Part shown: positions 2,237-51,687 of the stretch, piece after piece
Position numbering within the stretch: the stretch's first letter is position 1
Layout: the number at the start of each line of letters is the position of its first letter
Origin: a virus
Lineage: Duplodnaviria; Heunggongvirae; Uroviricota; Caudoviricetes
DNA length: 53,880 nt
Reading direction: 5' to 3' (one strand)
IMG/VR virus record: IMGVR_UViG_2617270943_000003
Span: 1-53,880 of that record
Made by a program: the position numbers and the translations under genes
Notes under the pieces: generated by a model
What the model was told of the DNA's origin: nothing
Seen by the model: only the letters and a program-made list of their open reading frames with translations
Database searches by the model: none

Positions 2237-2668
2237 TCATTGCCCCCAGCGTTTTATAAATTCCTCGTTTAATTTCGTATCACCCGACCATTGAACATCA
2301 TGTTCAGCACCGAACGAGTAGATCAATTCGATTAGTTCGCTGAATTCTGATTTACTCATTCGACTTGTAGACGTTCCCAATACAACGAAGCCTGATTTAT
2401 CTAGGTTAGGGACTACGCCATATTTCTTAAGTCCGGCAGTGAATACCGCTTTCCAGTCTTCCGGCGACAGCTTTTTACCGTACCAATTAACCTGATCGCT
2501 AATGTCGGTCAATAGCGCCCAAAGCAACGCATTTTGGCTTAGCGAGCGGGTTTTCTCCTGGATGGTGATTATCAGCGGGCTTTTGCTATCAGGCTGGATC
2601 TCTCTTATCTGCCTGATAGCATTTTCTTTCACGGCGTCGTTGACTATCTCAAATCTAATTTGCCGCAT
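2237..2668 (-). CDS. ninB: NinB / Orf-family recombination protein
   Basis: MRQIRFEIVNDAVKENAIRQI...TIQEKTRSLSQNALLWALLTDISDQVNWYGKKLSPEDWK...VVPNL...FVVLGTSTSRMSKSEF matches lambda NinB nearly position for position; start taken at the internal Met. Confidence 0.85.
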   Translation of the reverse strand: MRQIRFEIVNDAVKENAIRQIREIQPDSKSPLIITIQEKTRSLSQNALLWALLTDISDQVNWYGKKLSPEDWKAVFTAGLKKYGVVPNLDKSGFVVLGTSTSRMSKSEFSELIELIYSFGAEHDVQWSGDTKLNEEFIKRWGQ

Positions 2669-2882
2669 TATTTCTTTTCGCCTTATTTTTCGCTTTGTAT
2701 TCCTGCCAACTTTCCCAGCGCGCATTTATAATTGCATCAAGACTAATCAATTTTGAAGAAGTCATAAAAGCGCCTTTTAAATATTTCATATCAACCGTAA
2801 CAGGTTTATCAGGATCACCGCCGCGCTTGTATTCCGCGATCGTGCTTAAATCCTCCACGGTCAATTCTAAATCCTTGTTCAT
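2655..2882 (-). CDS. Hypothetical protein
   Basis: 75 aa ORF in the leftward operon, small overlap with ninB start. Confidence 0.4.
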   Translation of the reverse strand: MNKDLELTVEDLSTIAEYKRGGDPDKPVTVDMKYLKGAFMTSSKLISLDAIINARWESWQEYKAKNKAKRNNAAN

Positions 2883-2891
2883 AATTCCCCC

Positions 2892-3098
2892 TTACACAAT
2901 CCGCATTGTGTTTCGTAATTCACCGCGCAACGCCCGTAATGCATCGCGCATTGGCACAAAAACCCGGTTAAATTTTACGTGTTTATATTTCCGCATCAGT
3001 GGCGGTGTATACACCTTTGCGTCGTATACTTCCCACGGATAATAAACGCGCGTATCGTCGACAAACGTTTCAACTGAATAAAAGATTACCCGTCTCAT
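2892..3098 (-). CDS. Hypothetical protein
   Basis: 68 aa ORF, stop/start overlap with the upstream gene suggests an operon. Confidence 0.4.
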   Translation of the reverse strand: MRRVIFYSVETFVDDTRVYYPWEVYDAKVYTPPLMRKYKHVKFNRVFVPMRDALRALRGELRNTMRIV

Positions 3099-3652
3099 AA
3101 TTCTAACCCCGTTTCACCGTTAAGTTTTTCGATCTCAAATACTGGTTTATCCGGTAACAGGCCGTTATTTTTCCGGTATTCATTCAGGCGGCTGTCAAAA
3201 TCAAACGCGAGATCATTAGCGTGACCAAAGCGCCCAGGTTTAAACAGTGAGTAAAAGTTAAGGCCGTGTTTATTGGTGTCTATGCAAAGCGTTTCATCAA
3301 GTACCATTAAACGCAGCGTGCGCGACAGGTAATTCCACGGGATACCAGTTTCCGCGCTAATGTCACGCATACGCTTCTTAACGCTGTAGTCACTAAATAA
3401 CGCCGCCACACGATCACGACGTTGTGCATACAAATATTTAATTCGATACCCCAATAATCTGCGGCGCGGTCCGAAATATGTATATACACGCTCGACAATA
3501 CCAGTATCAATCAAGTGTTTAATTGTCTCAGGCAAACATCCGGCTTCGTCATATTCCGCTGATAATCCGGTTTTCTGGCGTAGCTGGTGCATTGTTGCGA
3601 TGCCGTCCAGTTCAAGGATATTGATAACTTTTGTTTCAAGTTCAATGCTCAT
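3095..3652 (-). CDS. Hypothetical protein (possible winged-helix domain)
   Basis: ORF 3095-3688; start placed at MSIELETK (3652), which has GAGG upstream. Confidence 0.45.
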   Translation of the reverse strand: MSIELETKVINILELDGIATMHQLRQKTGLSAEYDEAGCLPETIKHLIDTGIVERVYTYFGPRRRLLGYRIKYLYAQRRDRVAALFSDYSVKKRMRDISAETGIPWNYLSRTLRLMVLDETLCIDTNKHGLNFYSLFKPGRFGHANDLAFDFDSRLNEYRKNNGLLPDKPVFEIEKLNGETGLEL

Positions 3653-3731
3653 TGTTTTTCGCCTCGTTTTAAGCGCGAAAACAGCCACCAGAAAGAGATC
3701 AACTTTCCGGTAAGCCGTTTGCTCAAGTTAA

Positions 3732-5153
3732 TTAAAAGGATGCGTTATTCTGGTTATTTCGTGGGGAGAATCGGCTTGCTGCCGGACGTTGTTGCATTGA
3801 CTGGATGCAGGCGGACGCCGCGCGAGCCTGGTTGCATGGAATGATGTTGCCGTTATCGTCAAACCACTGGTAAACAGTCCCCGTTTTCCCGTGACGGTTT
3901 TTTGAAACGATGATCTCCATGTATTCGCGGGCAACCGATTGTTCGTTGTAGTAGCCGTCGCGGTAGACCATGATGATCCGGTCTGCGTCCTGTTCAAGAT
4001 TACCGGAATCACGCAGATCAGAATTGTTCGGGCGCTTGTTCGGTCGTTCCTCAACGCGGCGGGATAATTGCGCCAGCGCCGCCACTGGCACGCGCAACTC
4101 TTTCGCCATCATTTTCAATGACCACGACAATTGCCCTACGGCGAGATCATGACGTTCGGCCTTAGCCAGCTTCATTAACCCGATGTAGTCAATCATTACC
4201 ATCCCCAGGTTAGGATGGTCCTGTTTCATCCGTTCGACGGTGGCGCGTATTTCCTCGACCGTTAACTGCGATGCGTCAACAATCCACACATCGAGATCGG
4301 CAAGGGCACTCATTCCCTGGGCGACGTGCGCCCAACCTTCGTCATCCAGTTTTACCGGATTACGTAGGCAATCCGTTGATAAGTTCCCAGCGCCAGCGAT
4401 AGCACGTTCAGTCATCTGATCGAGCGACATTTCAAGCGTGAACAGCAAAACGCCGACCCGCTGACCTTCGCCGCCAGGGTATGGACGTTCAGCCGCCGCG
4501 CGGGCAATTGCCAACGCCAACGCCGATTTACCAGACCCCGGACGTCCGGCGATAAGCACCAGATCAGTAGCGTTAATGCCTCCTAACATTTCGTCGAGTG
4601 GGTCAATCCCTGTTTTGATGTTGTCAGAGTTCACGCCACACTCCATGCGTTTACTTAGCACTTCCGTGTACTCCTGTACCGCGTCGCGCAACAGCACCGG
4701 AATAATCTTGTCTTTCGTTACTTTTAATTTTGAATACCGGGAATCAAAATATTTCATCGTCTCCCTGACAGCTTCAAGTGTCCCGGTTTCCAGGTTGTAG
4801 CGTATATCGTCCATCAGTTCCAACATTTGCCGCCGCTGATATTCCTCCTGTAATAGAGCGGCGTACCCCTTAAGGTTGGCAGCAGATGGACACGATCGCG
4901 CCGTTTGCATTAGCGGGACAAAATTTTCGTTACCGATTTCATCACCGACCATCAGAGCGTCAATAAGGTTTCTGTTTCTTGCTTGCGCCCGGATGATCTC
5001 AAACGCTCGTTTATATAGTGGAATGGTGAAGACTTCAGGATCGAGCGTAGCAAGAACATCTTGCGCGTTAGGAGTAAGCCCGCCCAACAGGAGGCCACCT
5101 ATCACGGCCGCTTCCCGTTCCTGGCGTAATGAGTTTATTTGCTCAGTCACCAT
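3732..5153 (-). CDS. Replicative DNA helicase, DnaB family
   Basis: DnaB N-terminal domain (AAVIGGLLLGG...KRAFEI), Walker A GRPGSGKSALALAIA, Walker B VMIDYIGLM, and DnaB C-terminal motifs (SRRVEERPNKRPNNSDLRDSGNLEQDADRIIMVYRD). Confidence 0.9.
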   Translation of the reverse strand: MVTEQINSLRQEREAAVIGGLLLGGLTPNAQDVLATLDPEVFTIPLYKRAFEIIRAQARNRNLIDALMVGDEIGNENFVPLMQTARSCPSAANLKGYAALLQEEYQRRQMLELMDDIRYNLETGTLEAVRETMKYFDSRYSKLKVTKDKIIPVLLRDAVQEYTEVLSKRMECGVNSDNIKTGIDPLDEMLGGINATDLVLIAGRPGSGKSALALAIARAAAERPYPGGEGQRVGVLLFTLEMSLDQMTERAIAGAGNLSTDCLRNPVKLDDEGWAHVAQGMSALADLDVWIVDASQLTVEEIRATVERMKQDHPNLGMVMIDYIGLMKLAKAERHDLAVGQLSWSLKMMAKELRVPVAALAQLSRRVEERPNKRPNNSDLRDSGNLEQDADRIIMVYRDGYYNEQSVAREYMEIIVSKNRHGKTGTVYQWFDDNGNIIPCNQARAASACIQSMQQRPAASRFSPRNNQNNASF

Positions 5154-7997: not shown

Positions 7998-8303
7998 CTT
8001 GTTTTTCTCCTATGGTTAGAGTGAACGCGCGGGCGGGCATCCCATTAGCATTAGATAGCAGTGACTGACCGCTGAACAGATCCCGCCGTTGCGTGATATT
8101 TGTTTTTCGCTTCGCAGCGACACCGGGTTTTTAAAGAGCTTAAGGTATGTGCCTTTTTGTGCCTTCCGTTATCTTTTTCCTTGCGTCTTTGCAAGTATGG
8201 CCTTACCTTGTCTGCAAGTTTACAAAATGGAATTTTAAGATCAAGGCTTAAAATACACGTTTTGTGACTTGCATCAAACTTTTTGAGGTTATAGGGTAGC
8301 GAC

Positions 8304-8951
8304 ATGAAAACAAAATGGTATGACTTAGCAAAGCAGCTCATGCGGGCGCAGGGCATGAGTCAGGATTCACTCGCAGATCTCATGGGGATAACTAAAGGCG
8401 GCCTGTCACACTGGCTTAACGGTCGCCGCGAGCCAAATCTTGAAGATATTGCGCGGATTATGCGGGCGCTTGGGCGTCGTCAGTTCACTGTTACACATGA
8501 TGGTATGGTCATTGATGATTCTGTTTCTAATACACTTCAGGCCGCACCGCCGCGTGATTTAGGTAGTTACCCGGTTATTGACTGGAAGGACACAGTAAAC
8601 AATATGGATGACACAAGGCGATCAGCATTACCACACGTTACGACTAGCGTTATTTGTTCAGATGATAGTTACTGGCTGGTTGCCAAAGGTGAATCAATGA
8701 ACGCGCCGCAGGGGTTGAGCATCCCGGCGGGGACGATGATACTTGTTGACCCGCACGCGCCAGCTATTGACGGCAAACTGGTTATAGCCCAGCTTGAGGA
8801 AGGGCAGATACCGACGTTTAAACAGTTGATTATTGATGGAGGTCAAAGGCTTTTACGTTCGCTCAATCCGCTGTATCCGCCAATCCCTATGAATCCAGAA
8901 TCAAAAATTATAGGCGTGGTGGTTGATGCGAAGATCGTAAACCTGCCATAA
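8304..8951 (+). CDS. cI: CI-like prophage repressor (XRE HTH + LexA/S24 peptidase domain)
   Basis: N-terminal HTH (MSQDSLADLMGITKGGLSHWLNGRREP) and C-terminal S24 autopeptidase motifs (AKGESM, catalytic Lys in VVDAKIV). Confidence 0.9.
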   Translation: MKTKWYDLAKQLMRAQGMSQDSLADLMGITKGGLSHWLNGRREPNLEDIARIMRALGRRQFTVTHDGMVIDDSVSNTLQAAPPRDLGSYPVIDWKDTVNNMDDTRRSALPHVTTSVICSDDSYWLVAKGESMNAPQGLSIPAGTMILVDPHAPAIDGKLVIAQLEEGQIPTFKQLIIDGGQRLLRSLNPLYPPIPMNPESKIIGVVVDAKIVNLP

Positions 8952-9102: not shown

Positions 9103-9451
9103 TGCGAGTCAAAGGAAGGGCGCAGGTAACAAAAGCAACTTCCTGGCACTTTAAAAATCAGGCTTAACACCTTGTCAACCGTGGAGTAACTCCCCGATGG
9201 GGGACCGAAAGCGGCACTGATAACAAGGCGCATGGGGTGTTTAAAGCGTTACATCCCCCACGAAACCGCACGCAAGGCGACGAGTCAGCTTGCTTGGAGT
9301 GAGCAAGGTCACGCCGGGAACGGCGATGATTGCGGGATTAGTTGAAAGATGTTAAGCCGCTCATTAACAATCTGGTCAGCCGCTGGAAGTGCGGCAATTA
9401 ACGAAGATGATTTTTTATTAAGTGTCATCAAGGATATACGGAGATCAGATT

Positions 9452-9742
9452 ATGAGCGTTACAATTATATATGGTAAATGTGATAGCAAAATGAATGCCA
9501 GGGAACGCAGAAGGATAAAAAGAGAAAACGAAAGAAAATCATCACCTGCAATCAATAAAACAGACAATGTGGATAAAGCTATTCGATTTGCAAACGAGGA
9601 AAGATGCAAACCAAATAGCATTAAAGAACGTCGCAAAGGATCAGTAAAATGGTATACGGAAAATGAAAGCGGCAGCTACTACCACGCAACGCAACCACGC
9701 CATTTAGGGGAAAAACCCCTGGATAAAGTCCGCTATCATTAA
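9452..9742 (+). CDS. Candidate N-like antitermination protein (arginine-rich motif)
   Basis: First gene after the early promoter; basic 96 aa protein with N-terminal arginine-rich stretch NARERRRIKRENERK; preceded by a ~340-nt untranslated leader. Confidence 0.35.
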   Translation: MSVTIIYGKCDSKMNARERRRIKRENERKSSPAINKTDNVDKAIRFANEERCKPNSIKERRKGSVKWYTENESGSYYHATQPRHLGEKPLDKVRYH

Positions 9743-16715: not shown

Positions 16716-16836
16716 TAATGGCGCTTTGCACCTTGTTAGCACGTATCCATTTTGTATACTTCAAGCAAACAAAATGCTCTTTAAAAATCCGGCAGCGCTG
16801 AAATGCGTAGAAATCACCTGAAAAGGAGAGAGCATT

Positions 16837-24599: not shown

Positions 24600-24800
24600 A
24601 TGTTCGACAGAATACGGGAGGCGTGTGCGTATGTGACTGGGGCCGTAACTGCTTTTTTCGGCGCGATAACCATCAATGACATTGCCGTCTTTGTGGGTAT
24701 CTTATCAACCGTAGGCACATTTGCCGTTAATTATTACTTCAAATCACAGGAGAACAAGCGAGCGCAAGAGGAACACGACGCGCGAATGGGGAATAAGTAA
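24600..24800 (+). CDS. Holin (pinholin-like, two TM domains)
   Basis: 66 aa, two hydrophobic segments and charged C-terminal tail, immediately upstream of a SAR lysozyme. Confidence 0.7.
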   Translation: MFDRIREACAYVTGAVTAFFGAITINDIAVFVGILSTVGTFAVNYYFKSQENKRAQEEHDARMGNK

Positions 24801-25292
24801 ATGATTAGCCAATCGCTGAAAAACAAGATTGTTGCGGCGGCGGCTGGTGGGGCGATCGCTATTGCGGCGGTGATGATTAAGCCATTAGAGGGCGTGGAAC
24901 ACGATCCCTATCGTGATGTTGTAGGTGTATGGACTGTTTGCTACGGTCACACCGGGAAAGACATCATGCTTGGTAAGACTTACACGCAATCAGAATGCGA
25001 TGCTTTGTTAAATAAAGATCTACACAAGACCGCAAAAGCGATTGACCCATATATCAAAGTCGAAATATCAGATTTTACCCGCGCTGCACTTTATTCCTTC
25101 GCCTATAACGTAGGCGCAACCAACTTCAAAACATCAACCTTATTAAAGCTACTCAATGACGGCAGGAAATCGGAAGCGTGCGCACAGCTTAAACGCTGGG
25201 TATACGCTGGCGGTAAGAAGTGGCAAGGCCTGGTAAACCGCCGCGATGTTGAATATGCCGTTTGCGAATGGGGGGAAACGTGGACAAGGTGA
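24801..25292 (+). CDS. Endolysin, phage lysozyme (GH24) with N-terminal signal-anchor-release domain
   Basis: N-terminal weakly hydrophobic Gly/Ala-rich segment [18 protein letters not shown] followed by the lysozyme catalytic region (E...D...T: [23 protein letters not shown]). Confidence 0.85.
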
Positions 25293-25750
25293 AGGCGTTA
25301 ATTATCGCCGCTGTTGTTTGCATTATTGCCGGACTTACCGCCGTAACGTGTTATTACCAGGGGGAAACGGCAAGGTTACAGGAAGAAGTCACGGTGACGA
25401 AAGGCGCACTGAAAACGGCAAGTAACACTATTCAGCAGATGAAGGAGCGAAACGCCGAACTGTCAAAACTTGATAAGAGGTATCACGATGAGATTAAAGC
25501 TATCAGATCTGACATTGCCGATCTGCGCACTGGCATTGATAACGGCACTATCAGGCTGCGCGTCAACGCAATACCCGTGCGAGTGTCCGACTCCGCCGAA
25601 TCCGCCAGCCGCATTGATGGAGCCTCCTGTAGACTCACTCCCGACGCTGAATCGGCTTATCTATCCCTCAGAGAACAACTAAAAGAGAAAGATGCGAAGA
25701 TAACCGCGCTTCAGGGCTACATCAAAACACAGTGCTTACGCAAAGAATAA
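25262..25750 (+). CDS. Rz: Spanin, inner membrane subunit (Rz-like)
   Basis: N-terminal TM helix then coiled-coil periplasmic domain; overlaps lysozyme 3' end; contains embedded Rz1. Confidence 0.7.
25488..25682 (+). CDS. Rz1: Spanin, outer membrane lipoprotein subunit (Rz1-like), embedded in Rz
   Basis: Lipobox ITALSGC and Pro-rich mature region ([17 protein letters not shown]), entirely within Rz in another frame. Confidence 0.7.
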   Translation: MRLKLSDLTLPICALALITALSGCASTQYPCECPTPPNPPAALMEPPVDSLPTLNRLIYPSENN

Positions 25751-44234: not shown

Positions 44235-44363
44235 TTCACACCTCCGCGCCATTTTGTTAACTATGCTTCCGTTTGAGTAAAATATACATATTGTAAAAAC
44301 CGCGATCAATCCATTTTGGCATGATTTGGCGTGACACAGATCACAAAATGACAAGGTGAGAAA

Positions 44364-45802: not shown

Positions 45803-46275
45803 ACGTTGATACGCCAGCGCAAGGACTTCGCTTATTGACTGCGCAGAATCAGGAATTCAAAAAAGCGTTTTTAAACACACCATCACGATTACGGATTGCG
45901 GGAAAGGATTATAACGAAAAAACAGCGCCAGCTGCGGTGAACAGCAAATACCCGGACGGGACCACTGTAATTATTGCGCCAGTAGTGGAAGGTGGGATCG
46001 CTGGTATCGGTGTAATTGGCTGGATCATGATTGGTATTTCAGTAGTTAGCGTTGCGTTTTCCCTCTTTATGTCTCGCAACATGAAGGTAAAAACATCAGC
46101 AGAAAGCGCACAGGATAACACCATAACGAATAACACCTACACCAGCGTTGAAAACAAGGTAGGTCAGGGTAGACCAGTGCCAATCCTATTGGGCGAAATG
46201 AAAATAGGTTCAAACGTCGGATCGTTAGGCATAGACACAAGTAATAACAAAGACGCCTTAGACGTTGTAAGTTGA
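45745..46275 (+). CDS. I: Tail assembly protein I
   Basis: Gly-rich hydrophobic segment and C-terminus LLGEMKIGSNV similar to lambda gpI; overlaps the K 3' end. Confidence 0.7.
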   Translation: MLKFRFTGNLRRYYGKVCLNVDTPAQGLRLLTAQNQEFKKAFLNTPSRLRIAGKDYNEKTAPAAVNSKYPDGTTVIIAPVVEGGIAGIGVIGWIMIGISVVSVAFSLFMSRNMKVKTSAESAQDNTITNNTYTSVENKVGQGRPVPILLGEMKIGSNVGSLGIDTSNNKDALDVVS

Positions 46276-46289
46276 CAGGAGAAAAAGCC

Positions 46290-49200
46290 ATGAGTAGCGG
46301 CGGCGGCAAAGCCAAAACACCAACATTGCTAAACGATAACCTGTATCATAAACAGTTTTACCGTGTTTTAGATATCCTTAGTGAAGGGCCGATATACGGT
46401 CCAGTAAACCAGACCGCGCCATTAAACAGCGTAATGCTTAATGACACCCCTGTTACTGACACCAACGGGAATACATCCATTCCTGGTATTAGTATAGCGT
46501 GGCGCAACGGTACGGTTGACCAATCGCCAATCAATGGTTTTAACGCTATCGAATCAACCGTTATTGTCAACGCTCAGGTAACTCGCGACACACCAATAAT
46601 CAGGACCGTTTCAGATCCAAACGTAACCCGCGTCAGATTAAATGTTGGCGTTGATGCTCTCGTTCAGTCAGATGATCAGGGCAATCAATACAACACATCC
46701 GTTATGTTAATGGTTGATGTTAAGCCATCATCATCATCAACTTGGACACTGGTTAAGGATATTACCATTGGCCCTGGTAAACAGAGCGGTGAATACTTAG
46801 AAGCTCACATTATCAACGCGCCGGATGAAAAACCGTTTGATATTCGCGTTCGCCGCATAACGGCAGACAGCAACAGCGATCTACTTCGCAATGATACGCG
46901 GTGGAGCAGTTACAGCGAAATCATCGACGATAATTTGTCTTATCCTCACACCGCTGTAGCTGGAGCGGTGATTGATCATGATCAGTACACTGACACGCCT
47001 ACCCGCGCTTATCATCTGCGCGGCCTGATTGTTGACGTGCCGGACAACTACAACCCTGAAGCGCGCACGTATTCCGGTTTATGGCTTGGTGGATTTAAAA
47101 AGGCGTACACCAATAACCCTGCCTGGCTTTTCCGGTATTTGATTAAAAATGAACGCTTTGGCCTTGCACGACAGGCTGGTTATATTGACGTTGATGACGG
47201 CGCTTTATACGTGCTTTCTCAATACTGCGACCAGTTGGTTGATGATGGCTACGGTGGCCTTGAGCCTCGCATGACGCTTAACGCTTACATCACAGAGCAA
47301 ATGAGCGCCCGCGACTTACTGGACAATATCGCCGGGATGTTCAGGGGTATCGCGTTATGGGACGGGCAACGCCTTACCGTGATGATTGATGCACCACAAG
47401 ACCCGATCGCCACCATTACAAATGCAAACGTCGTTGATGGTGCATTCACCCGTTCGAGCCTTGCCCGCGCGGAGTGCTACAACGCCGTGATTGTATCCTG
47501 GACCGATCCGGGTAACGGTTGGGAACAGTCAAAAGAATACGTTTCTGACGATGAACTAATCGCCCGCGACGGCTACAACGAAACCACGCTAGAGGCGTTC
47601 GGGTGCACGTCTCGCGGACAGGCTTATCGCGCTGGTAAATGGCTGATCGAAACAGCAAAACGCGAGCCGTCAAAATTCACGTTTAAAATGGCCCGTGACG
47701 CCATTCACTTTACACCAGGGGATATCATCGAGATCCTCGACAATAACCGCGCTGGCGCTCGCTTAGGCGGTCGTATCGTGGCGAACAATGGCAAAGTGAT
47801 AACGGTCGATAAGGTTGATTCTGAATATATCGCGGCTGGTGACACCATCAGCTTACTTGATAGCGATGGTAAATTTAAAAAACACCAGATCACCGGAGTT
47901 AACGGAAACAATATTACCCTTGCTGCGGCCCCTGCATGGATTCGCAATGGCACTGTTTTTGCTGTATCGACTGAAGCAGCAAAACCCGTTTTATGTAGGA
48001 TCACCAGCGTAGCAGAAACAGAAAATAACAGCGTATACACTATCGAAGCCGCACAGCACGACCCTAACAAACAGGCCGTAGTTGATGAAGGCGCAGTCTT
48101 CGAAATCAACAACGACACGCTTAATCACTTCCGCGTACCTAACATTGAAAATCTGAAGGTGTTAAACGTTGGTTCTGAAACGGTTCAATGCCGCGCAACA
48201 TGGGAAACGCAGACAACAACGCATCGTCTTACCTTTGAAATCCGCGTATATAATGCAGACGGTCGCGTGGTGGCAAGTTATGAAACCACGAATTACCGCT
48301 ATGAATTTTATGGCCTCGACGCAGGCAGCTACACGCTTGGTATTCGCGGTCGTAATGACACTGGCATGAAGGGCGCAGAAAGTATTGTGGATCTGGTTAT
48401 TGGTGCGCCAGCGGCCCCCATCGGCGTTAATTGGGTGCCTGGTGTTTTTCAGGCAACGGTGTACCCGATCAGCAAAACAACCCTAACCACTGATACAGCA
48501 TACGAGTTCTACTACTCCGGGGAAAATCAGATCACAGATCCATCAAAAGTAACCACATCAGCGCAGTTTACCGGGCGCGGGTATCAGTGGACTTTTGGCG
48601 GAATGAACACGGGCCATACCTATTACGTTTATGTCCGTACACGTAACGCTTTTGGTGTGTCAGATTTCGTTGAGGCATCAGGCAAACCAACTGAAAACTT
48701 CGATGAAATTAGCGACTACGTCACCAAAGACGTGATTAATTCAGAACAGTTTAAGGGGATGATTGGCGACATTAAAGATCTTGGCGACCGCGCTGATCTT
48801 ATAGAGAGCGCTACGGATGACCTAAAAACTGCAACTGACGACCTTAAGACCGCAACTGATAATCTTACCAATATCACAAACGGCCTAAGAACTGATACTG
48901 ACGACCTTATTGCAGAAACAGGGTCAATAAAAGTTGACACAGATACGCTTAAAAAAGACACGGAAGATCTTTATAAAAAAGTTCAGGAAAGCGCCGATGA
49001 AATAGGTAAACATGAGGTAAGAATAGACTCGTTAGAGGTATCAAGCGAAAACGTCGGTAATGAACTGGCACAGACAAAAGCAAGCCTACAAAACGCATCG
49101 CTTGCTCTTATTAATAATTCGCTTGCTCAAACTAACACCAGAAGAACGCTTACAGCTCAGATCAAAAATGTAGATTCAGAAACTAAGGCGCAAATAGATC

Positions 49201-51230
49201 GCATTGATAACGTGATTGTCAGTGAAAAAGAAGCAAGAGCGGAGGCAATGGAGACAATTACCGCCGAAATCGACACGATGGATAAAAACATCAAAGGTGA
49301 GATTGCGCGCGTAGATACTGCCATTGCCAATGAGAGCCAGGCAAGGGCTGATGCCATCAGTGAAGTTAGCGCAAACATTGACGCACTTGATAGTAAAACA
49401 GATGCCAGTGTTAATCGTCTTGATCAAGCTATCGCAGATGAGGCCAGCGCACGCGCACAGGCTATCAGCAATGTCAATGCGAGCATGACAAATCTTGATA
49501 ACAAGGTTACAAGCAACGTTTCTAGACTTGATCAGGCAATAGCTGACGAATCAAGCGCAAGAGCAGAAGCCGATGATCAGTTAATAGCAAAAAGCGAAAA
49601 ACTTGATGGTGATCTCGCTATGGCAAGGGCAAGCCTACAAAACGCTTCGCTTGCTCTCATCAATAATACATTGTCTCAGACAAAGACAAGGCGCACTCTC
49701 ACAGCGGAGTTCAAACGCGGACAAAGTGAAACTAAAGCACAAATTGACCGTATTGATAATGTCATTACTGACGAAAAACAGGCAACAGCGGAAGCGTTTG
49801 AAACTATCACAGCAGAAATGAACACGATGGACTCAAACATTAAAGGAGAAATATCACGATTAGATAAAGTGATCGCGACTGAAACGCAAGCAAGATCTGA
49901 AGCTATAAGTAGTGTTAATGCAAGCATAAAGACGCTAGAAAGCGACACTGAAGCCAGCGTTAACCGTCTTGATCAGGCAGTTGCTGACGAGGCCAGCGCC
50001 CGCGCACAAGCTATCAGCGGAGTAAATGCAAGCATCAGCACGCTTGATAGCAAGGTTACAAGCAATGTGACCCGTATCGACAAAGCTATTGCAGATGAGA
50101 CGCAGGCCCGCACAGACGCAATAAGCAACCTTAACTCATCGCTTACCAGTACGATTAATTCGAAAGTATCTGAAGTATCAACAGCACTTTCTACGCATGA
50201 AGCATCAAGCGCGGAAAAATTCAGCCAGATCTCAGCGTCTTTCGAAGCTGTAAACTCAAGCATCACGGAATGGTCGCAGACCATGACAACTGCGGACGAG
50301 GCATTATCAACCAAAATTGATCAGCTTACAGTAACAGTTAACGGGAACACCACGGCGATCGAGACAACATCTAAAGCGTTAACCGACTTCAAAGGTAATG
50401 TTGATGCGTCATGGTCAATCAAGATTGCCACCGACAACAACGGCAGAAAATACGCAACAGGTATGTCGCTTGGCCTGACTGGTAGCGGGACTAACGTTCA
50501 ATCGCAGTGTATTTTCCTCGTTGACCGCTTCGTGTTAATGACTGCGGCAAACGGAACATATCAGACGCCTTTCTATGTTACTAATGGTGCAATGTATGTG
50601 CGCGAAGCGTTTATTAAAGACGCATCAATAGGAACGGCTAAAATTGCAGATGCAGCCATTACTATGGCTAAAATTGTTAATGAAATAAAATCATCAAACT
50701 ATGTTGCTGGTTCTAAAGGTTGGAGGATAACACAAAGCGGATCATCAGAATTTAACGATGTTGTGGTAAGGGGCGAAATCCATGCTAATAGCGGTAAATT
50801 CAAAGGAACTGTAGAAGCTACATCCTTTGTTGGTGATGTCGCATCTACTAACGTTATACCGCAATCATCATTCCCTGGGACAAGTACAAGCGGATCTCGA
50901 TCTGTTACGAAGACGTATAAAGATTCATCATCAAGCTCGCTTTCGAAAACAGTTTTCGTAATGATTCCTTACCATCTTACTTATTATACTTATTCAGGAT
51001 CATCAACAATAAAAGTAACAATTAATATTAATGGCAATAGCAAAACATATAACGTAGTAAGGGCGGCATCATCGCCTCAATTCGGATTTACGGTATCACA
51101 TTGCGTAACTGGGATTACTGCTCAAACAGTTACGATAAAAATAACAGAGGAATACACCAACACCGGAACATCAGCAGAAAGAAGGCCAGGTCTTGCACTT
51201 GTTACAAGAAGCTCAGGATCATGGTCATAA
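46290..51230 (+). CDS. J: Host specificity / central tail fibre protein J
   Basis: N-terminal ~1000 aa collinear with lambda J (FYRVLDILSEGPIYGPVN...YHLRGLIVDVPDNYNP...AFGCTSRGQAYRAGKWLIET); the C-terminal part contains extended coiled-coil repeats. ATG at 46290 with AGGAGAAAAAG upstream. Confidence 0.9.
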   Translation: MSSGGGKAKTPTLLNDNLYHKQFYRVLDILSEGPIYGPVNQTAPLNSVMLNDTPVTDTNGNTSIPGISIAWRNGTVDQSPINGFNAIESTVIVNAQVTRDTPIIRTVSDPNVTRVRLNVGVDALVQSDDQGNQYNTSVMLMVDVKPSSSSTWTLVKDITIGPGKQSGEYLEAHIINAPDEKPFDIRVRRITADSNSDLLRNDTRWSSYSEIIDDNLSYPHTAVAGAVIDHDQYTDTPTRAYHLRGLIVDVPDNYNPEARTYSGLWLGGFKKAYTNNPAWLFRYLIKNERFGLARQAGYIDVDDGALYVLSQYCDQLVDDGYGGLEPRMTLNAYITEQMSARDLLDNIAGMFRGIALWDGQRLTVMIDAPQDPIATITNANVVDGAFTRSSLARAECYNAVIVSWTDPGNGWEQSKEYVSDDELIARDGYNETTLEAFGCTSRGQAYRAGKWLIETAKREPSKFTFKMARDAIHFTPGDIIEILDNNRAGARLGGRIVANNGKVITVDKVDSEYIAAGDTISLLDSDGKFKKHQITGVNGNNITLAAAPAWIRNGTVFAVSTEAAKPVLCRITSVAETENNSVYTIEAAQHDPNKQAVVDEGAVFEINNDTLNHFRVPNIENLKVLNVGSETVQCRATWETQTTTHRLTFEIRVYNADGRVVASYETTNYRYEFYGLDAGSYTLGIRGRNDTGMKGAESIVDLVIGAPAAPIGVNWVPGVFQATVYPISKTTLTTDTAYEFYYSGENQITDPSKVTTSAQFTGRGYQWTFGGMNTGHTYYVYVRTRNAFGVSDFVEASGKPTENFDEISDYVTKDVINSEQFKGMIGDIKDLGDRADLIESATDDLKTATDDLKTATDNLTNITNGLRTDTDDLIAETGSIKVDTDTLKKDTEDLYKKVQESADEIGKHEVRIDSLEVSSENVGNELAQTKASLQNASLALINNSLAQTNTRRTLTAQIKNVDSETKAQIDRIDNVIVSEKEARAEAMETITAEIDTMDKNIKGEIARVDTAIANESQARADAISEVSANIDALDSKTDASVNRLDQAIADEASARAQAISNVNASMTNLDNKVTSNVSRLDQAIADESSARAEADDQLIAKSEKLDGDLAMARASLQNASLALINNTLSQTKTRRTLTAEFKRGQSETKAQIDRIDNVITDEKQATAEAFETITAEMNTMDSNIKGEISRLDKVIATETQARSEAISSVNASIKTLESDTEASVNRLDQAVADEASARAQAISGVNASISTLDSKVTSNVTRIDKAIADETQARTDAISNLNSSLTSTINSKVSEVSTALSTHEASSAEKFSQISASFEAVNSSITEWSQTMTTADEALSTKIDQLTVTVNGNTTAIETTSKALTDFKGNVDASWSIKIATDNNGRKYATGMSLGLTGSGTNVQSQCIFLVDRFVLMTAANGTYQTPFYVTNGAMYVREAFIKDASIGTAKIADAAITMAKIVNEIKSSNYVAGSKGWRITQSGSSEFNDVVVRGEIHANSGKFKGTVEATSFVGDVASTNVIPQSSFPGTSTSGSRSVTKTYKDSSSSSLSKTVFVMIPYHLTYYTYSGSSTIKVTININGNSKTYNVVRAASSPQFGFTVSHCVTGITAQTVTIKITEEYTNTGTSAERRPGLALVTRSSGSWS
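49082..50110 (+). repeat. Intragenic tandem duplication (~549-bp period) within J
   Basis: Two diverged copies starting AAGCCTACAAAACGC at 49082 and 49631, encoding repeated NASLQNASLALINN...AQIDRIDNVI...ARA.AIS.VNAS blocks. Confidence 0.7.
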
Positions 51231-51237
51231 AAAATAA

Positions 51238-51262
51238 CCCCGCTTCGCGCGGGGTTTTCTTT
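51238..51262. terminator. Bidirectional rho-independent terminator between J and the convergent lipoprotein gene
   Basis: CCCCGC-TTCGC-GCGGGG hairpin with A-run upstream and T-run downstream. Confidence 0.65.
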
Positions 51263-51510
51263 TAGTAGTTAGCTACACAATTCGACGGGCTACCTATGCG
51301 GCGCATGTTGTGATCGAGTTCATGACACCATTGACCAGTATACGGAAGTTTTTCAGTGTCATAGACGAGATGACCGTCAGCATCATAGACAATTTCTTGT
51401 GGGATTACTCCGCTATTTGGCAGGTTATGCAATGCAGCTTCTTTATCAACAGCGCAACCAGTAAGAGCAACAGCCGCAGCGAATAAGACCACTTTGAACA
51501 TGTTTTTCAT
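51262..51510 (-). CDS. Small lipoprotein, Cor-like candidate
   Basis: Signal peptide with lipobox AVALTGC; 82 aa; opposite-strand gene between J and the tail fibre gene, the usual place for cor. Confidence 0.4.
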   Translation of the reverse strand: MKNMFKVVLFAAAVALTGCAVDKEAALHNLPNSGVIPQEIVYDADGHLVYDTEKLPYTGQWCHELDHNMRRIGSPSNCVANY

Positions 51511-51687
51511 TTTTTAATCCTCATTCTTGTTAGCTCGTCCGGTTCATCCGGTGGTTTAAATATCCGACAAAACCACATTTCGTATATTGACATAAATCAA
51601 TAAATACATTTTGTATGCGTCAAAAATGTAACACAGATCACAAAATGGTAGAATTATTCCGTTAATTAACATAATGGAGTCATTGCG

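What the first reader, a model, noticed from the sequence alone, without database searches (positions are those of the whole stretch)
51262..51510. Opposite-strand small lipoprotein between J and the tail fibre gene (Cor-like superinfection exclusion candidate)
An 82-aa lipoprotein (lipobox LTGC) is encoded convergently to J, separated from it by a bidirectional terminator, with its upstream region (51511-51687) carrying the CATTTTGTAT and ACACAGATCACAAAATGG elements. In several lambdoid phages the cor gene, an outer-membrane lipoprotein that blocks receptor use by related phages, occupies this position. Sequence identity to Cor cannot be asserted from memory.
Basis: partly seen in the sequence, partly recalled or inferred. 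Interest (0 to 1): 0.4.

Follow-up and report, generated by a model that had tools for sequence, protein, structure and literature searches.

The report
LamB-type phage exclusion lipoprotein, not Cor
The small opposite-strand gene between the phage tail-tip gene J and the tail-fibre gene is real. It encodes an outer-membrane lipoprotein 94% identical to one already shown in 2025 to block infection by LamB-dependent phages, including lambda, so it is a known kind of superinfection-exclusion gene and is unrelated in sequence to Cor.

Summary
An 82-aa ORF lies at 51262-51510 on the minus strand. It has a Shine-Dalgarno site, a signal peptide and the lipobox LTGC. It is convergent with J and separated from it by a strong bidirectional terminator.

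The window is a complete mEp021-group ("mEpimmI") temperate coliphage genome, colinear with mEp010. The protein is 94% identical to mEp010 gp116 (Lpp010, "type-C Lpp") and 99% identical to the MagusPhagus "lipoprotein". Plasmid-expressed Lpp010 excludes the LamB-dependent phages mEp010, mEp044, mEp554 and lambda (PMC11893012).

The same mature domain (about 70% identity) sits in the same J | lipoprotein | tail-fibre slot in Seuratvirus, Nonagvirus and Dhillonvirus phages. All four BASEL Seuratvirus phages that use LamB carry it. The LptD-dependent BASEL Queuovirinae phages do not.

It is not a Cor homologue. BLASTP finds nothing, and the profile similarity is confined to the signal peptide. 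Mature domains compared alone give 0.4% probability.

The family (Cor) and the receptor (FhuA) are wrong.

How a lipoprotein disables LamB, which has no plug domain, is still unknown. This is already known; interest is low.

The parts
51262..51510 (-). Exclusion lipoprotein gene (type-C Lpp, orthologue of mEp010 gp116/Lpp010). The signal peptide is encoded by 51510-51457, lipobox Cys19 by 51456-51454, the mature 63-aa domain by 51456-51265, and the stop codon is 51264-51262.
   Evidence: ORF list. It is 94% identical to mEp010 gp116 and 99% to the MagusPhagus lipoprotein. PHROG 12984 matches at 2.5e-26. Synonymous changes exceed non-synonymous ones. Invariant residues are C19, PNSGV.P, TGQW and C78, and C62 is nearly invariant.
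51518..51522 (-). Shine-Dalgarno sequence GAGGA, 7 nt upstream of the ATG.
   Evidence: Read directly from the sequence. It is conserved in all five relatives.
51236..51256 (.). Bidirectional intrinsic terminator shared by J and the lipoprotein gene.
   Evidence: Terminator scan on both strands. Folding energies are -16 and -19.7 kcal/mol, z = -3.3 and -5.5. The mEp records annotate a terminator at the same place.
50800..51230 (+). C-terminal receptor-binding region of J (aa 1510-1652), which follows the Pfam Phage_Tail_Tip domain. It belongs to 'subtype 2' of the LamB-associated J ends.
   Evidence: Pfam domains of J. It is 44-52% identical, with the same indels, to the J ends of CAjan, EP23 and the LamB-dependent Bas21, Bas23 and Bas24. 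It has no significant similarity to the C-terminal domain of lambda J.
51511..51687 (.). AT-rich (33% GC) divergent intergenic region between the lipoprotein and tail-fibre genes. It contains the inverted repeats CATTTTGT/ACAAAATG (51607-14 / 51640-47) and TACATTTT/AAAATGTA (51605-12 / 51623-30). It also holds a + strand extended -10 candidate, TGgTAGAAT (51646-51654). The lipoprotein gene's own promoter was not identified.
   Evidence: Repeat search, relaxed promoter scan, stringent scan with 0 sites, GC content, and 95% column identity among six phages.
51688..53880 (+). Lateral tail-fibre gene (730 aa) with a C-terminal Peptidase_S74 chaperone domain. This is context and forms the other boundary of the slot.

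Best explanation
The gene encodes a superinfection-exclusion lipoprotein of the mEpimmI 'type-C Lpp' family. The precursor is exported, lipidated at Cys19 and its signal peptide is cleaved. Because residue +2 is Ala rather than Asp, the Lol pathway should sort it to the inner leaflet of the outer membrane. There its 63-residue domain, with two conserved cysteines that probably form a disulfide, makes the maltoporin LamB unusable as a phage receptor. Cells that carry or are infected by this phage therefore become resistant to phages that need LamB, including the phage itself, its relatives and lambda. The gene travels together with the LamB-type receptor-binding end of J as one horizontally exchanged host-recognition module. 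What is shown: the gene, its signals, its orthology, its linkage to LamB-dependent phages, and (in the literature, for the 94%-identical Lpp010) the exclusion phenotype. What is inferred: outer-membrane location, the disulfide, a direct action on LamB, LamB dependence of this particular phage, and when the gene is expressed.
For: The protein is 94% identical over its full length to mEp010 gp116 and 91.5-94% identical to the mEp013, mEp044 and mEp554 proteins. The locus layout is identical in all of them. PMC11893012 reports that mEp010, mEp013, mEp044 and mEp554 require LamB. It also reports that plasmid-expressed Lpp010 excludes mEp010, mEp044, mEp554 and lambda. The C-terminal region of lambda J has no significant similarity to this phage's J end, so LamB is the known component the excluded phages share. 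Homologues about 70% identical in the mature domain occupy the same J | lipoprotein (convergent) | tail-fibre slot in Seuratvirus CAjan and Bas21-24 and in Dhillonvirus EP23. The BASEL S5 table lists Bas21-24 as LamB-dependent. The LptD-dependent Bas19, Bas20 and Bas25 are absent from all 44 significant tblastn hits, as are T1, T5, N15 and HK022. Both subtypes of the linked J C-terminal domain are tied to LamB by experiment, and the window carries subtype 2. In Seuratvirus the lipoprotein is the same whichever J subtype it accompanies. That fits a host target rather than a phage target. The lipobox, Shine-Dalgarno site and terminator are present, and the gene is under purifying selection.
Against: No experiment exists for this allele. 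It differs from Lpp010 at four mature-domain positions clustered at residues 39-45. Lpp010 did not exclude the LamB-dependent mEp013, so the block is not a simple loss of LamB. Only spot assays are published, with no adsorption or binding data, so a direct action on LamB is inferred. This phage's own receptor is predicted only from 44-52% identity of its J end to those of LamB phages. No convincing promoter was found for the gene. The structure model is too poor to support any mechanism (pLDDT 62.9).
Confidence: 0.85

Rival explanations
1. It is a Cor homologue that inactivates FhuA, as in phi80, N15, HK022 and T1.
For: It is a small lipoprotein of similar size to Cor (82 aa against 77-78 aa), encoded downstream of J where cor lies in N15 and HK022. 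Full-length hhalign against a Cor profile gives 93% probability.
Against: That hhalign match covers only 27 columns, which are the signal peptide and lipobox. With mature domains alone the probability is 0.4% and E = 0.17. BLASTP against HK022 and N15 Cor finds no alignment. The Cor PHROG matches residues 4-24 only at E = 0.097, against 2.4e-37 for HK022 Cor. All characterised phages carrying this lipoprotein use LamB, not FhuA.
Confidence: 0.02
2. It excludes phages at a step after adsorption. For example, it could block the periplasmic passage of the tape-measure protein and DNA conduit, like the Ltp lipoprotein of Streptococcus phage TP-J34 (named from memory, not checked here), rather than altering LamB.
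For: Only spot assays are published. One LamB-dependent phage, mEp013, escapes Lpp010. A periplasm-facing lipoprotein is well placed to interfere with ejection.
Against: The gene is inherited together with the LamB-type end of J across three otherwise unrelated siphovirus groups. It also excludes lambda, whose J C-terminal region is unrelated. A target in the ejection machinery would be expected to follow tail genes, not the receptor-binding domain.
Confidence: 0.1
3. It is the outer-membrane spanin subunit (Rz1-like) or another lysis or structural accessory lipoprotein.
For: It is the only ORF in the window that passes a strict filter for a lipoprotein signal peptide.
Against: The lysis cassette lies about 25.5 kb away: holin at 24600-24797, endolysin at 24801-25289 and an Rz-like spanin at 25268-25747. 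The gene has its own terminator and is on the opposite strand. The orthologue has a demonstrated exclusion phenotype.
Confidence: 0.02

Closest known systems
Lpp010 (gp116 of phage mEp010), the 'type-C Lpp' of the mEpimmI phages (Front Microbiol 2025, PMC11893012); PHROG 12984 'lipoprotein'
   Same: It has 94% identity over all 82 residues and the same lipobox. The slot and orientation between J and the tail-fibre gene are the same, as are the terminator and the phage group.
   Different: There are five substitutions: M4V in the signal peptide and E39D, I40V, A44G and D45S in the mature domain. The linked J C-terminal domain is the other subtype, only about 38% identical to that of mEp010 over the last 200 aa. 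This allele has not been tested.
Lipoproteins of Seuratvirus, Nonagvirus and Dhillonvirus phages (CAjan gp19, Bas21-24, 9g, EP23) within the host-recognition loci described for the BASEL collection (PMC8594841)
   Same: The mature domain is homologous, with 67-75% identity over the last 52 residues and the same invariant motifs. The J | lipoprotein | lateral tail-fibre arrangement is the same. The J end is of the same LamB-linked type, and LamB dependence was shown for Bas21-24.
   Different: Those phages are virulent and have unrelated genomes. Their signal peptide and linker differ, and their proteins are 3-5 residues shorter. No exclusion test has been published for them.
Llp of phage T5 (FhuA-Llp crystal structure, PMC9586334)
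   Same: It works alike in outline: a small outer-membrane lipoprotein encoded beside the receptor-binding protein gene that switches off the phage's own receptor from the periplasmic side.
   Different: There is no sequence similarity. No PDB chain is matched by the family profile at E <= 10 apart from two chance hits, and there is no PHROG link. Llp acts by jamming the plug of a TonB-dependent transporter, and LamB has no plug, so that mechanism cannot simply be transferred.
Cor of phi80, N15, HK022 and T1 (PHROG 1119, 'phage exclusion lipoprotein Cor')
   Same: Both are small lipoproteins encoded downstream of J and act in receptor-level exclusion.
   Different: The mature domains are unrelated. 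Cor acts on FhuA, whereas this family is linked to LamB. In HK022 and N15, cor is on the same strand as J, whereas this gene is convergent with J.
Lpp021 (gp81 of mEp021), the 'type-A Lpp'
   Same: It occupies the same slot in the same phage group and is an experimentally shown exclusion lipoprotein.
   Different: It belongs to a different family, PHROG 4281. hhalign gives 19% probability, over the signal peptide only. It is linked to OmpA-dependent phages and is accompanied by a 311-aa membrane protein gene.

Membership tests
mEpimmI type-C Lpp / PHROG 12984 | Full-length sequence similarity to Lpp010 and to the PHROG profile | tested here: met
   94% identity to mEp010 gp116. PHROG 12984 matches at E = 2.5e-26 over residues 7-82.
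mEpimmI type-C Lpp / PHROG 12984 | N-terminal lipoprotein signal peptide with a lipobox | tested here: met
   MKNMFK + VVLFAAAVA + LTGC. Cys19 is invariant in 25 homologues.
mEpimmI type-C Lpp / PHROG 12984 | Location between J and the tail-fibre gene, convergent with J | tested here: met
   The layout is the same in the window, four mEp phages, MagusPhagus, CAjan, Bas21-24 and EP23.
mEpimmI type-C Lpp / PHROG 12984 | Linkage to a LamB-dependent phage (LamB-type J C-terminal domain) | tested here: inconclusive
   The window's J end is 52% identical, with the same indels, to those of the LamB-dependent Bas21, Bas23 and Bas24. The receptor of this phage itself is unknown.
mEpimmI type-C Lpp / PHROG 12984 | Expression excludes LamB-dependent phages | not testable with these tools
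   This was shown for Lpp010 only (PMC11893012).
Cor (PHROG 1119) | Sequence similarity of the mature domain to Cor | tested here: not met
   BLASTP finds no hit. hhalign on mature domains gives 0.4% probability. The PHROG 1119 match is limited to residues 4-24. The positive control, HK022 Cor, scores 2.4e-37.
Cor (PHROG 1119) | Association with and exclusion of FhuA-dependent phages | tested here: not met
   Characterised carriers of this lipoprotein depend on LamB. Cor-carrying phages are absent from the homologue list.
Cor (PHROG 1119) | Small lipoprotein encoded downstream of J | tested here: met
   The strand differs from that of cor in HK022 and N15.
T5 Llp | Sequence or fold similarity to Llp | tested here: not met
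   The profile search of PDB sequences finds no Llp. Foldseek finds nothing at E <= 0.001, but the model is of low confidence, so the fold question stays open.
o-spanin (Rz1-like) | Encoded in or next to the lysis cassette with an i-spanin partner | tested here: not met
   The lysis cassette is at 24600-25747, about 25.5 kb away.

The most novel reading that the evidence does not exclude
The type-C lipoprotein may bind the periplasmic face of the LamB trimer and disable it as a phage receptor by a route unlike the only solved case. In that case, T5 Llp jams the FhuA plug. LamB has no plug, so the route would have to be different, for example insertion into or capping of the maltoporin channel, or allosteric refolding of surface loops. 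The variable patch at residues 39-45, and the ability of some J variants such as mEp013 to escape, would then reflect an ongoing contest between exclusion and receptor binding at LamB.
Probability: 0.35. Interest if true: 0.45.

Novelty: already known. Interest (0 to 1): 0.2.

Why it matters
The result assigns a tested function to this gene and predicts that the phage in the window uses LamB. It also corrects a tempting annotation: 'Cor-like' would imply FhuA. More broadly, the same lipoprotein and J-end module is shared by temperate mEp021-group phages and by virulent Seuratvirus, Nonagvirus and Dhillonvirus phages. This supports the view that receptor specificity and the matching exclusion factor move together as one unit. 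The open point of some interest is mechanistic: nobody has shown how a roughly 63-residue lipoprotein disables a plug-less porin such as LamB.

Tried and rejected
- **Family libraries.** Pfam, NCBIfam and PADLOC give no meaningful match. The NCBIfam hits are signal-peptide noise.
- **Structure.** The AlphaFold2 model built on 25 homologues is poor (mean pLDDT 62.9, pTM 0.38). Foldseek against the PDB then gives nothing at E <= 0.001, so no structural argument is made. The profile search of PDB sequences gives only two chance hits.
- **Exhaustive profile search.** A search of 1.84 billion cluster representatives finds only three true clusters. There is therefore no deeper superfamily to draw on. 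A fourth hit, a 4467-aa adhesin, matches only a 24-residue repeat motif and was rejected as homology.
- **Remote homology with the type-A Lpp of mEp021.** A six-sequence alignment with aligned cysteines suggested it. It is not supported: hhalign gives 19% probability, over the signal peptide only.
- **Apparent Cor similarity in full-length hhalign.** Probabilities of 91-93% were shown to come from the signal peptide and lipobox alone.
- **Promoter for the lipoprotein gene.** The stringent scan finds none. The relaxed scan gives only weak candidates in AT-rich DNA.
- **Putative 5' leader.** It has no significant structure (z = -0.04).
- **Receptor of CAjan.** A literature search found nothing. 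Receptors of its close relatives Bas21, Bas23 and Bas24 were used instead.

Full report
**Observation**

It lies at 51262-51510 on the minus strand, is 82 aa long and starts at ATG. A GAGGA Shine-Dalgarno site lies 7 nt upstream of the start. The N-terminus has the three parts of a bacterial lipoprotein signal peptide: a basic start (MKNMFK), a hydrophobic core (VVLFAAAVA) and the lipobox LTGC with Cys19.

J (46272-51230, + strand) is a true GpJ homologue with five Pfam GpJ or tail-tip domains. It ends 31 nt before the lipoprotein's stop codon. Between the two genes is an 8-bp hairpin with 6 G-C pairs at 51236-51256, with T-runs on both strands. Its folding energy is -16 kcal/mol on the + strand and -19.7 kcal/mol on the - strand, with z-scores of -3.3 and -5.5.

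The tail-fibre gene (51688-53880) carries a Peptidase_S74 chaperone domain. Both quoted sequence elements are present in the 177-bp intergenic region.

The ORF is a real gene. Compared with five related phages, synonymous codon changes far outnumber non-synonymous ones, for example 17 to 5 against mEp010.

**What the window is**

Both halves of the window match the mEp021-group temperate coliphages at 85-88% DNA identity over 68-88% of the query (57% for MagusPhagus against the first half), colinear with mEp010. These phages are mEp010, mEp013, mEp044, mEp554, mEp515, mEp021 and MagusPhagus, together called "mEpimmI". The window is therefore a further member of that group, probably a whole genome.

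**Identity of the protein**

tblastn against 50,697 phage records gives 44 significant hits.
- MagusPhagus is 98.8% identical and is annotated "lipoprotein".
- mEp010, mEp554, mEp013 and mEp044 are 91.5-93.9% identical over the full length.
- About 39 records of Seuratvirus, Nonagvirus (9g), Dhillonvirus and two related phages share 61-75% identity over the last 52 residues.

PHROG 12984 "lipoprotein" matches at 2.5e-26.

The family is narrow. It comprises 27 clusters at 90% identity among 5.8 billion proteins. A profile search of 1.84 billion representatives finds only three true clusters at 50% identity.

An alignment of 25 members shows invariant C19, P31-N-S-G-V-x-P, T52-E, T58-G-Q-W, R71, G73, N77, C78 and Y82, with C62 nearly invariant. 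The two mature-domain cysteines suggest a periplasmic disulfide. This is an inference.

**Published function**

PMC11893012 (Front Microbiol 2025) defines four lipoprotein sequence types in 40 of 48 mEpimmI genomes. Its "type C" is the protein of mEp010, mEp013, mEp044 and mEp554.
- Those four phages fail to plate on a lamB knockout.
- Plasmid expression of the mEp010 protein (gp116, Lpp010) excluded mEp010, mEp044, mEp554 and lambda, but not mEp013.

The window's protein differs from Lpp010 at five positions. One is in the signal peptide and four are at residues 39-45.

**Independent support for the LamB link**

The same convergent J | lipoprotein | tail-fibre arrangement is found in Seuratvirus CAjan and Bas21-24 and in Dhillonvirus EP23. 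In EP23 the gene is not annotated.

The BASEL S5 table lists Bas21, Bas22, Bas23 and Bas24 as LamB-dependent, and Bas22 was confirmed by complementation. All four carry the lipoprotein. The LptD-dependent Bas19, Bas20 and Bas25 do not appear among the homologue hits, and neither do T1, T5, N15 or HK022.

The C-terminal 140-200 residues of J come in two related subtypes.
- Subtype 1 is found in mEp010, mEp013, mEp044, mEp554 and Bas22.
- Subtype 2 is found in the window, MagusPhagus, CAjan, Bas21, Bas23, Bas24 and EP23. It is 44-52% identical to the window (79% for MagusPhagus), with the same insertions.

Both subtypes therefore include phages shown to need LamB. Within Seuratvirus the lipoprotein mature domain is essentially the same whichever J subtype accompanies it. 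That fits a host target.

The C-terminal region of lambda J is not detectably similar to this phage's. LamB is therefore the known common factor among the excluded phages.

In the OmpA-dependent mEp021 and mEp515, the same slot holds a different cassette.

**Test of the Cor hypothesis**

Cor of HK022 and N15 were fetched.
- BLASTP finds no alignment at E <= 100.
- The Cor PHROG matches only residues 4-24 at E = 0.097. HK022 Cor scores 2.4e-37 over its full length as a control.
- Full-length profile-profile comparison with an 89-member Cor alignment gives 93% probability. The alignment is 27 columns of signal peptide and lipobox.
- With both families trimmed to the mature protein, the probability falls to 0.4% and E = 0.17.

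The protein is therefore not a detectable Cor relative.

**Other rivals**

An o-spanin role is unlikely. The holin, endolysin and Rz-like spanin genes lie at 24600-25747.

A block after adsorption cannot be excluded, because only spot assays are published and mEp013 escapes. The strict co-inheritance with the J receptor-binding end in three unrelated phage groups argues for action at the receptor.

**Mechanism and its limits**

By analogy with T5 Llp, the most likely mechanism is binding to LamB from the periplasm. Llp is a periplasm-facing outer-membrane lipoprotein that binds FhuA and folds its surface loops inward. LamB has no plug domain, so the Llp mechanism cannot simply be transferred.

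The AlphaFold2 model is too uncertain to help (pLDDT 62.9). Foldseek and the PDB sequence search return nothing useful.

Sorting to the outer membrane is inferred from the +2 rule, since residue 20 is Ala rather than Asp.

The promoter and timing of expression are unknown. The stringent scan finds no promoter and the relaxed scan finds only weak candidates.

**The upstream elements**

CATTTTGTAT is not peculiar to this locus. It occurs 8 times in the window against 0.28 expected. Its 8-nt core occurs 23 times against 3.9 expected, often as inverted pairs. The 18-mer has a 17/18 copy at 44334, which also lies just upstream of a + strand late gene that follows an opposite-strand insert.

Some 8-mer copies are simply start-codon contexts. 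The rest look like a dispersed regulatory motif, and this was not resolved.

**Verdict**

The gene is an orthologue of an exclusion lipoprotein that is already characterised.

Noticed in passing
window 9063, 9742, 16748, 22570, 38989, 39017, 42432, 51607 (10-mer); 23 sites for the 8-mer core: CATTTTGTAT occurs 8 times in the window against 0.28 expected, and its core CATTTTGT occurs 23 times against 3.9 expected. The copies often form inverted pairs (16748/16769, 38991/39017, 42363/42434, 44250/44343, 51607/51640). Three copies share the longer form CCATTTTGTATACTT. Some 8-mer copies are only start-codon contexts of the type ACAAAATG. The rest may be a regulator-binding or promoter element.
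   Followed up: partly
window 44334-44351 and 51631-51648: ACACAGATCACAAAATGG has a second copy matching at 17 of 18 positions. Both copies sit just upstream of a + strand late gene that resumes after an opposite-strand insert (a gpL-like gene and the tail-fibre gene). The element contains a GATC site.
   Followed up: partly
window 51556-51672 (-): A 38-aa ORF lies in the intergenic region. Related records annotate a 'hypothetical protein' here, but with inconsistent coordinates and lengths (37-42 aa). It is probably a gene-caller artefact.
   Followed up: partly
window 50631-51230; L009 (mEp013) 2285-3004: The J C-terminal domain exists in two related subtypes, both linked to LamB. mEp013 is the LamB phage that escapes Lpp010. 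Its J is a mosaic: the segment just before the terminal domain resembles the window's (ADAAITMAKIVNEIKSSNYVAGS...), while the terminal domain is subtype 1.
   Followed up: partly
L001 (mEp021) 3412-4565: In the OmpA-dependent mEp021 and mEp515, the same slot holds a different cassette. It consists of a type-A lipoprotein (PHROG 4281) and a 311-aa membrane protein (PHROG 1265), both on the opposite strand to J.
   Followed up: partly
L016 (Shigella phage EP23) 4420-4662 (+); also PNS1: The homologous lipoprotein gene is not annotated in the EP23 and PNS1 GenBank and RefSeq records.
   Followed up: yes
window about 49000-50300 (J residues about 900-1350): J carries long internal coiled-coil repeats. 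For example, the segment ASLQNASLALINN...TKAQIDRIDNVI... occurs twice. This makes the protein 1652 aa long, against 1132 aa in lambda.
   Followed up: no
window 16769-16790: A sequence resembling the rrn/lambda boxA (TGCTCTTTAAAAA) lies directly after a CATTTTGT...ACAAAATG inverted repeat. It may be one of the nut sites described for this phage group.
   Followed up: no
lipoprotein residues 43-66; P0030: The core motif DADGHLVYDTEKLPYTGQWCHELD weakly resembles a motif repeated nine times in a 4467-aa adhesin (DANGNAVNNTENPITAGVWVNLVD). At least one of those copies lies at the start of an SdrD B-like repeat. The profile E-value is 2.3e-5, summed over the repeats. This is probably a shared beta-hairpin motif or chance, not homology.
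   Followed up: partly
window 8304-8951 (+) and 9422-9742 (+): A CI-like repressor gene (215 aa) and an arginine-rich N-like gene lie on the same strand. CATTTTGT copies occur at 8222, 8310, 9065 and 9744 around them.
   Followed up: no
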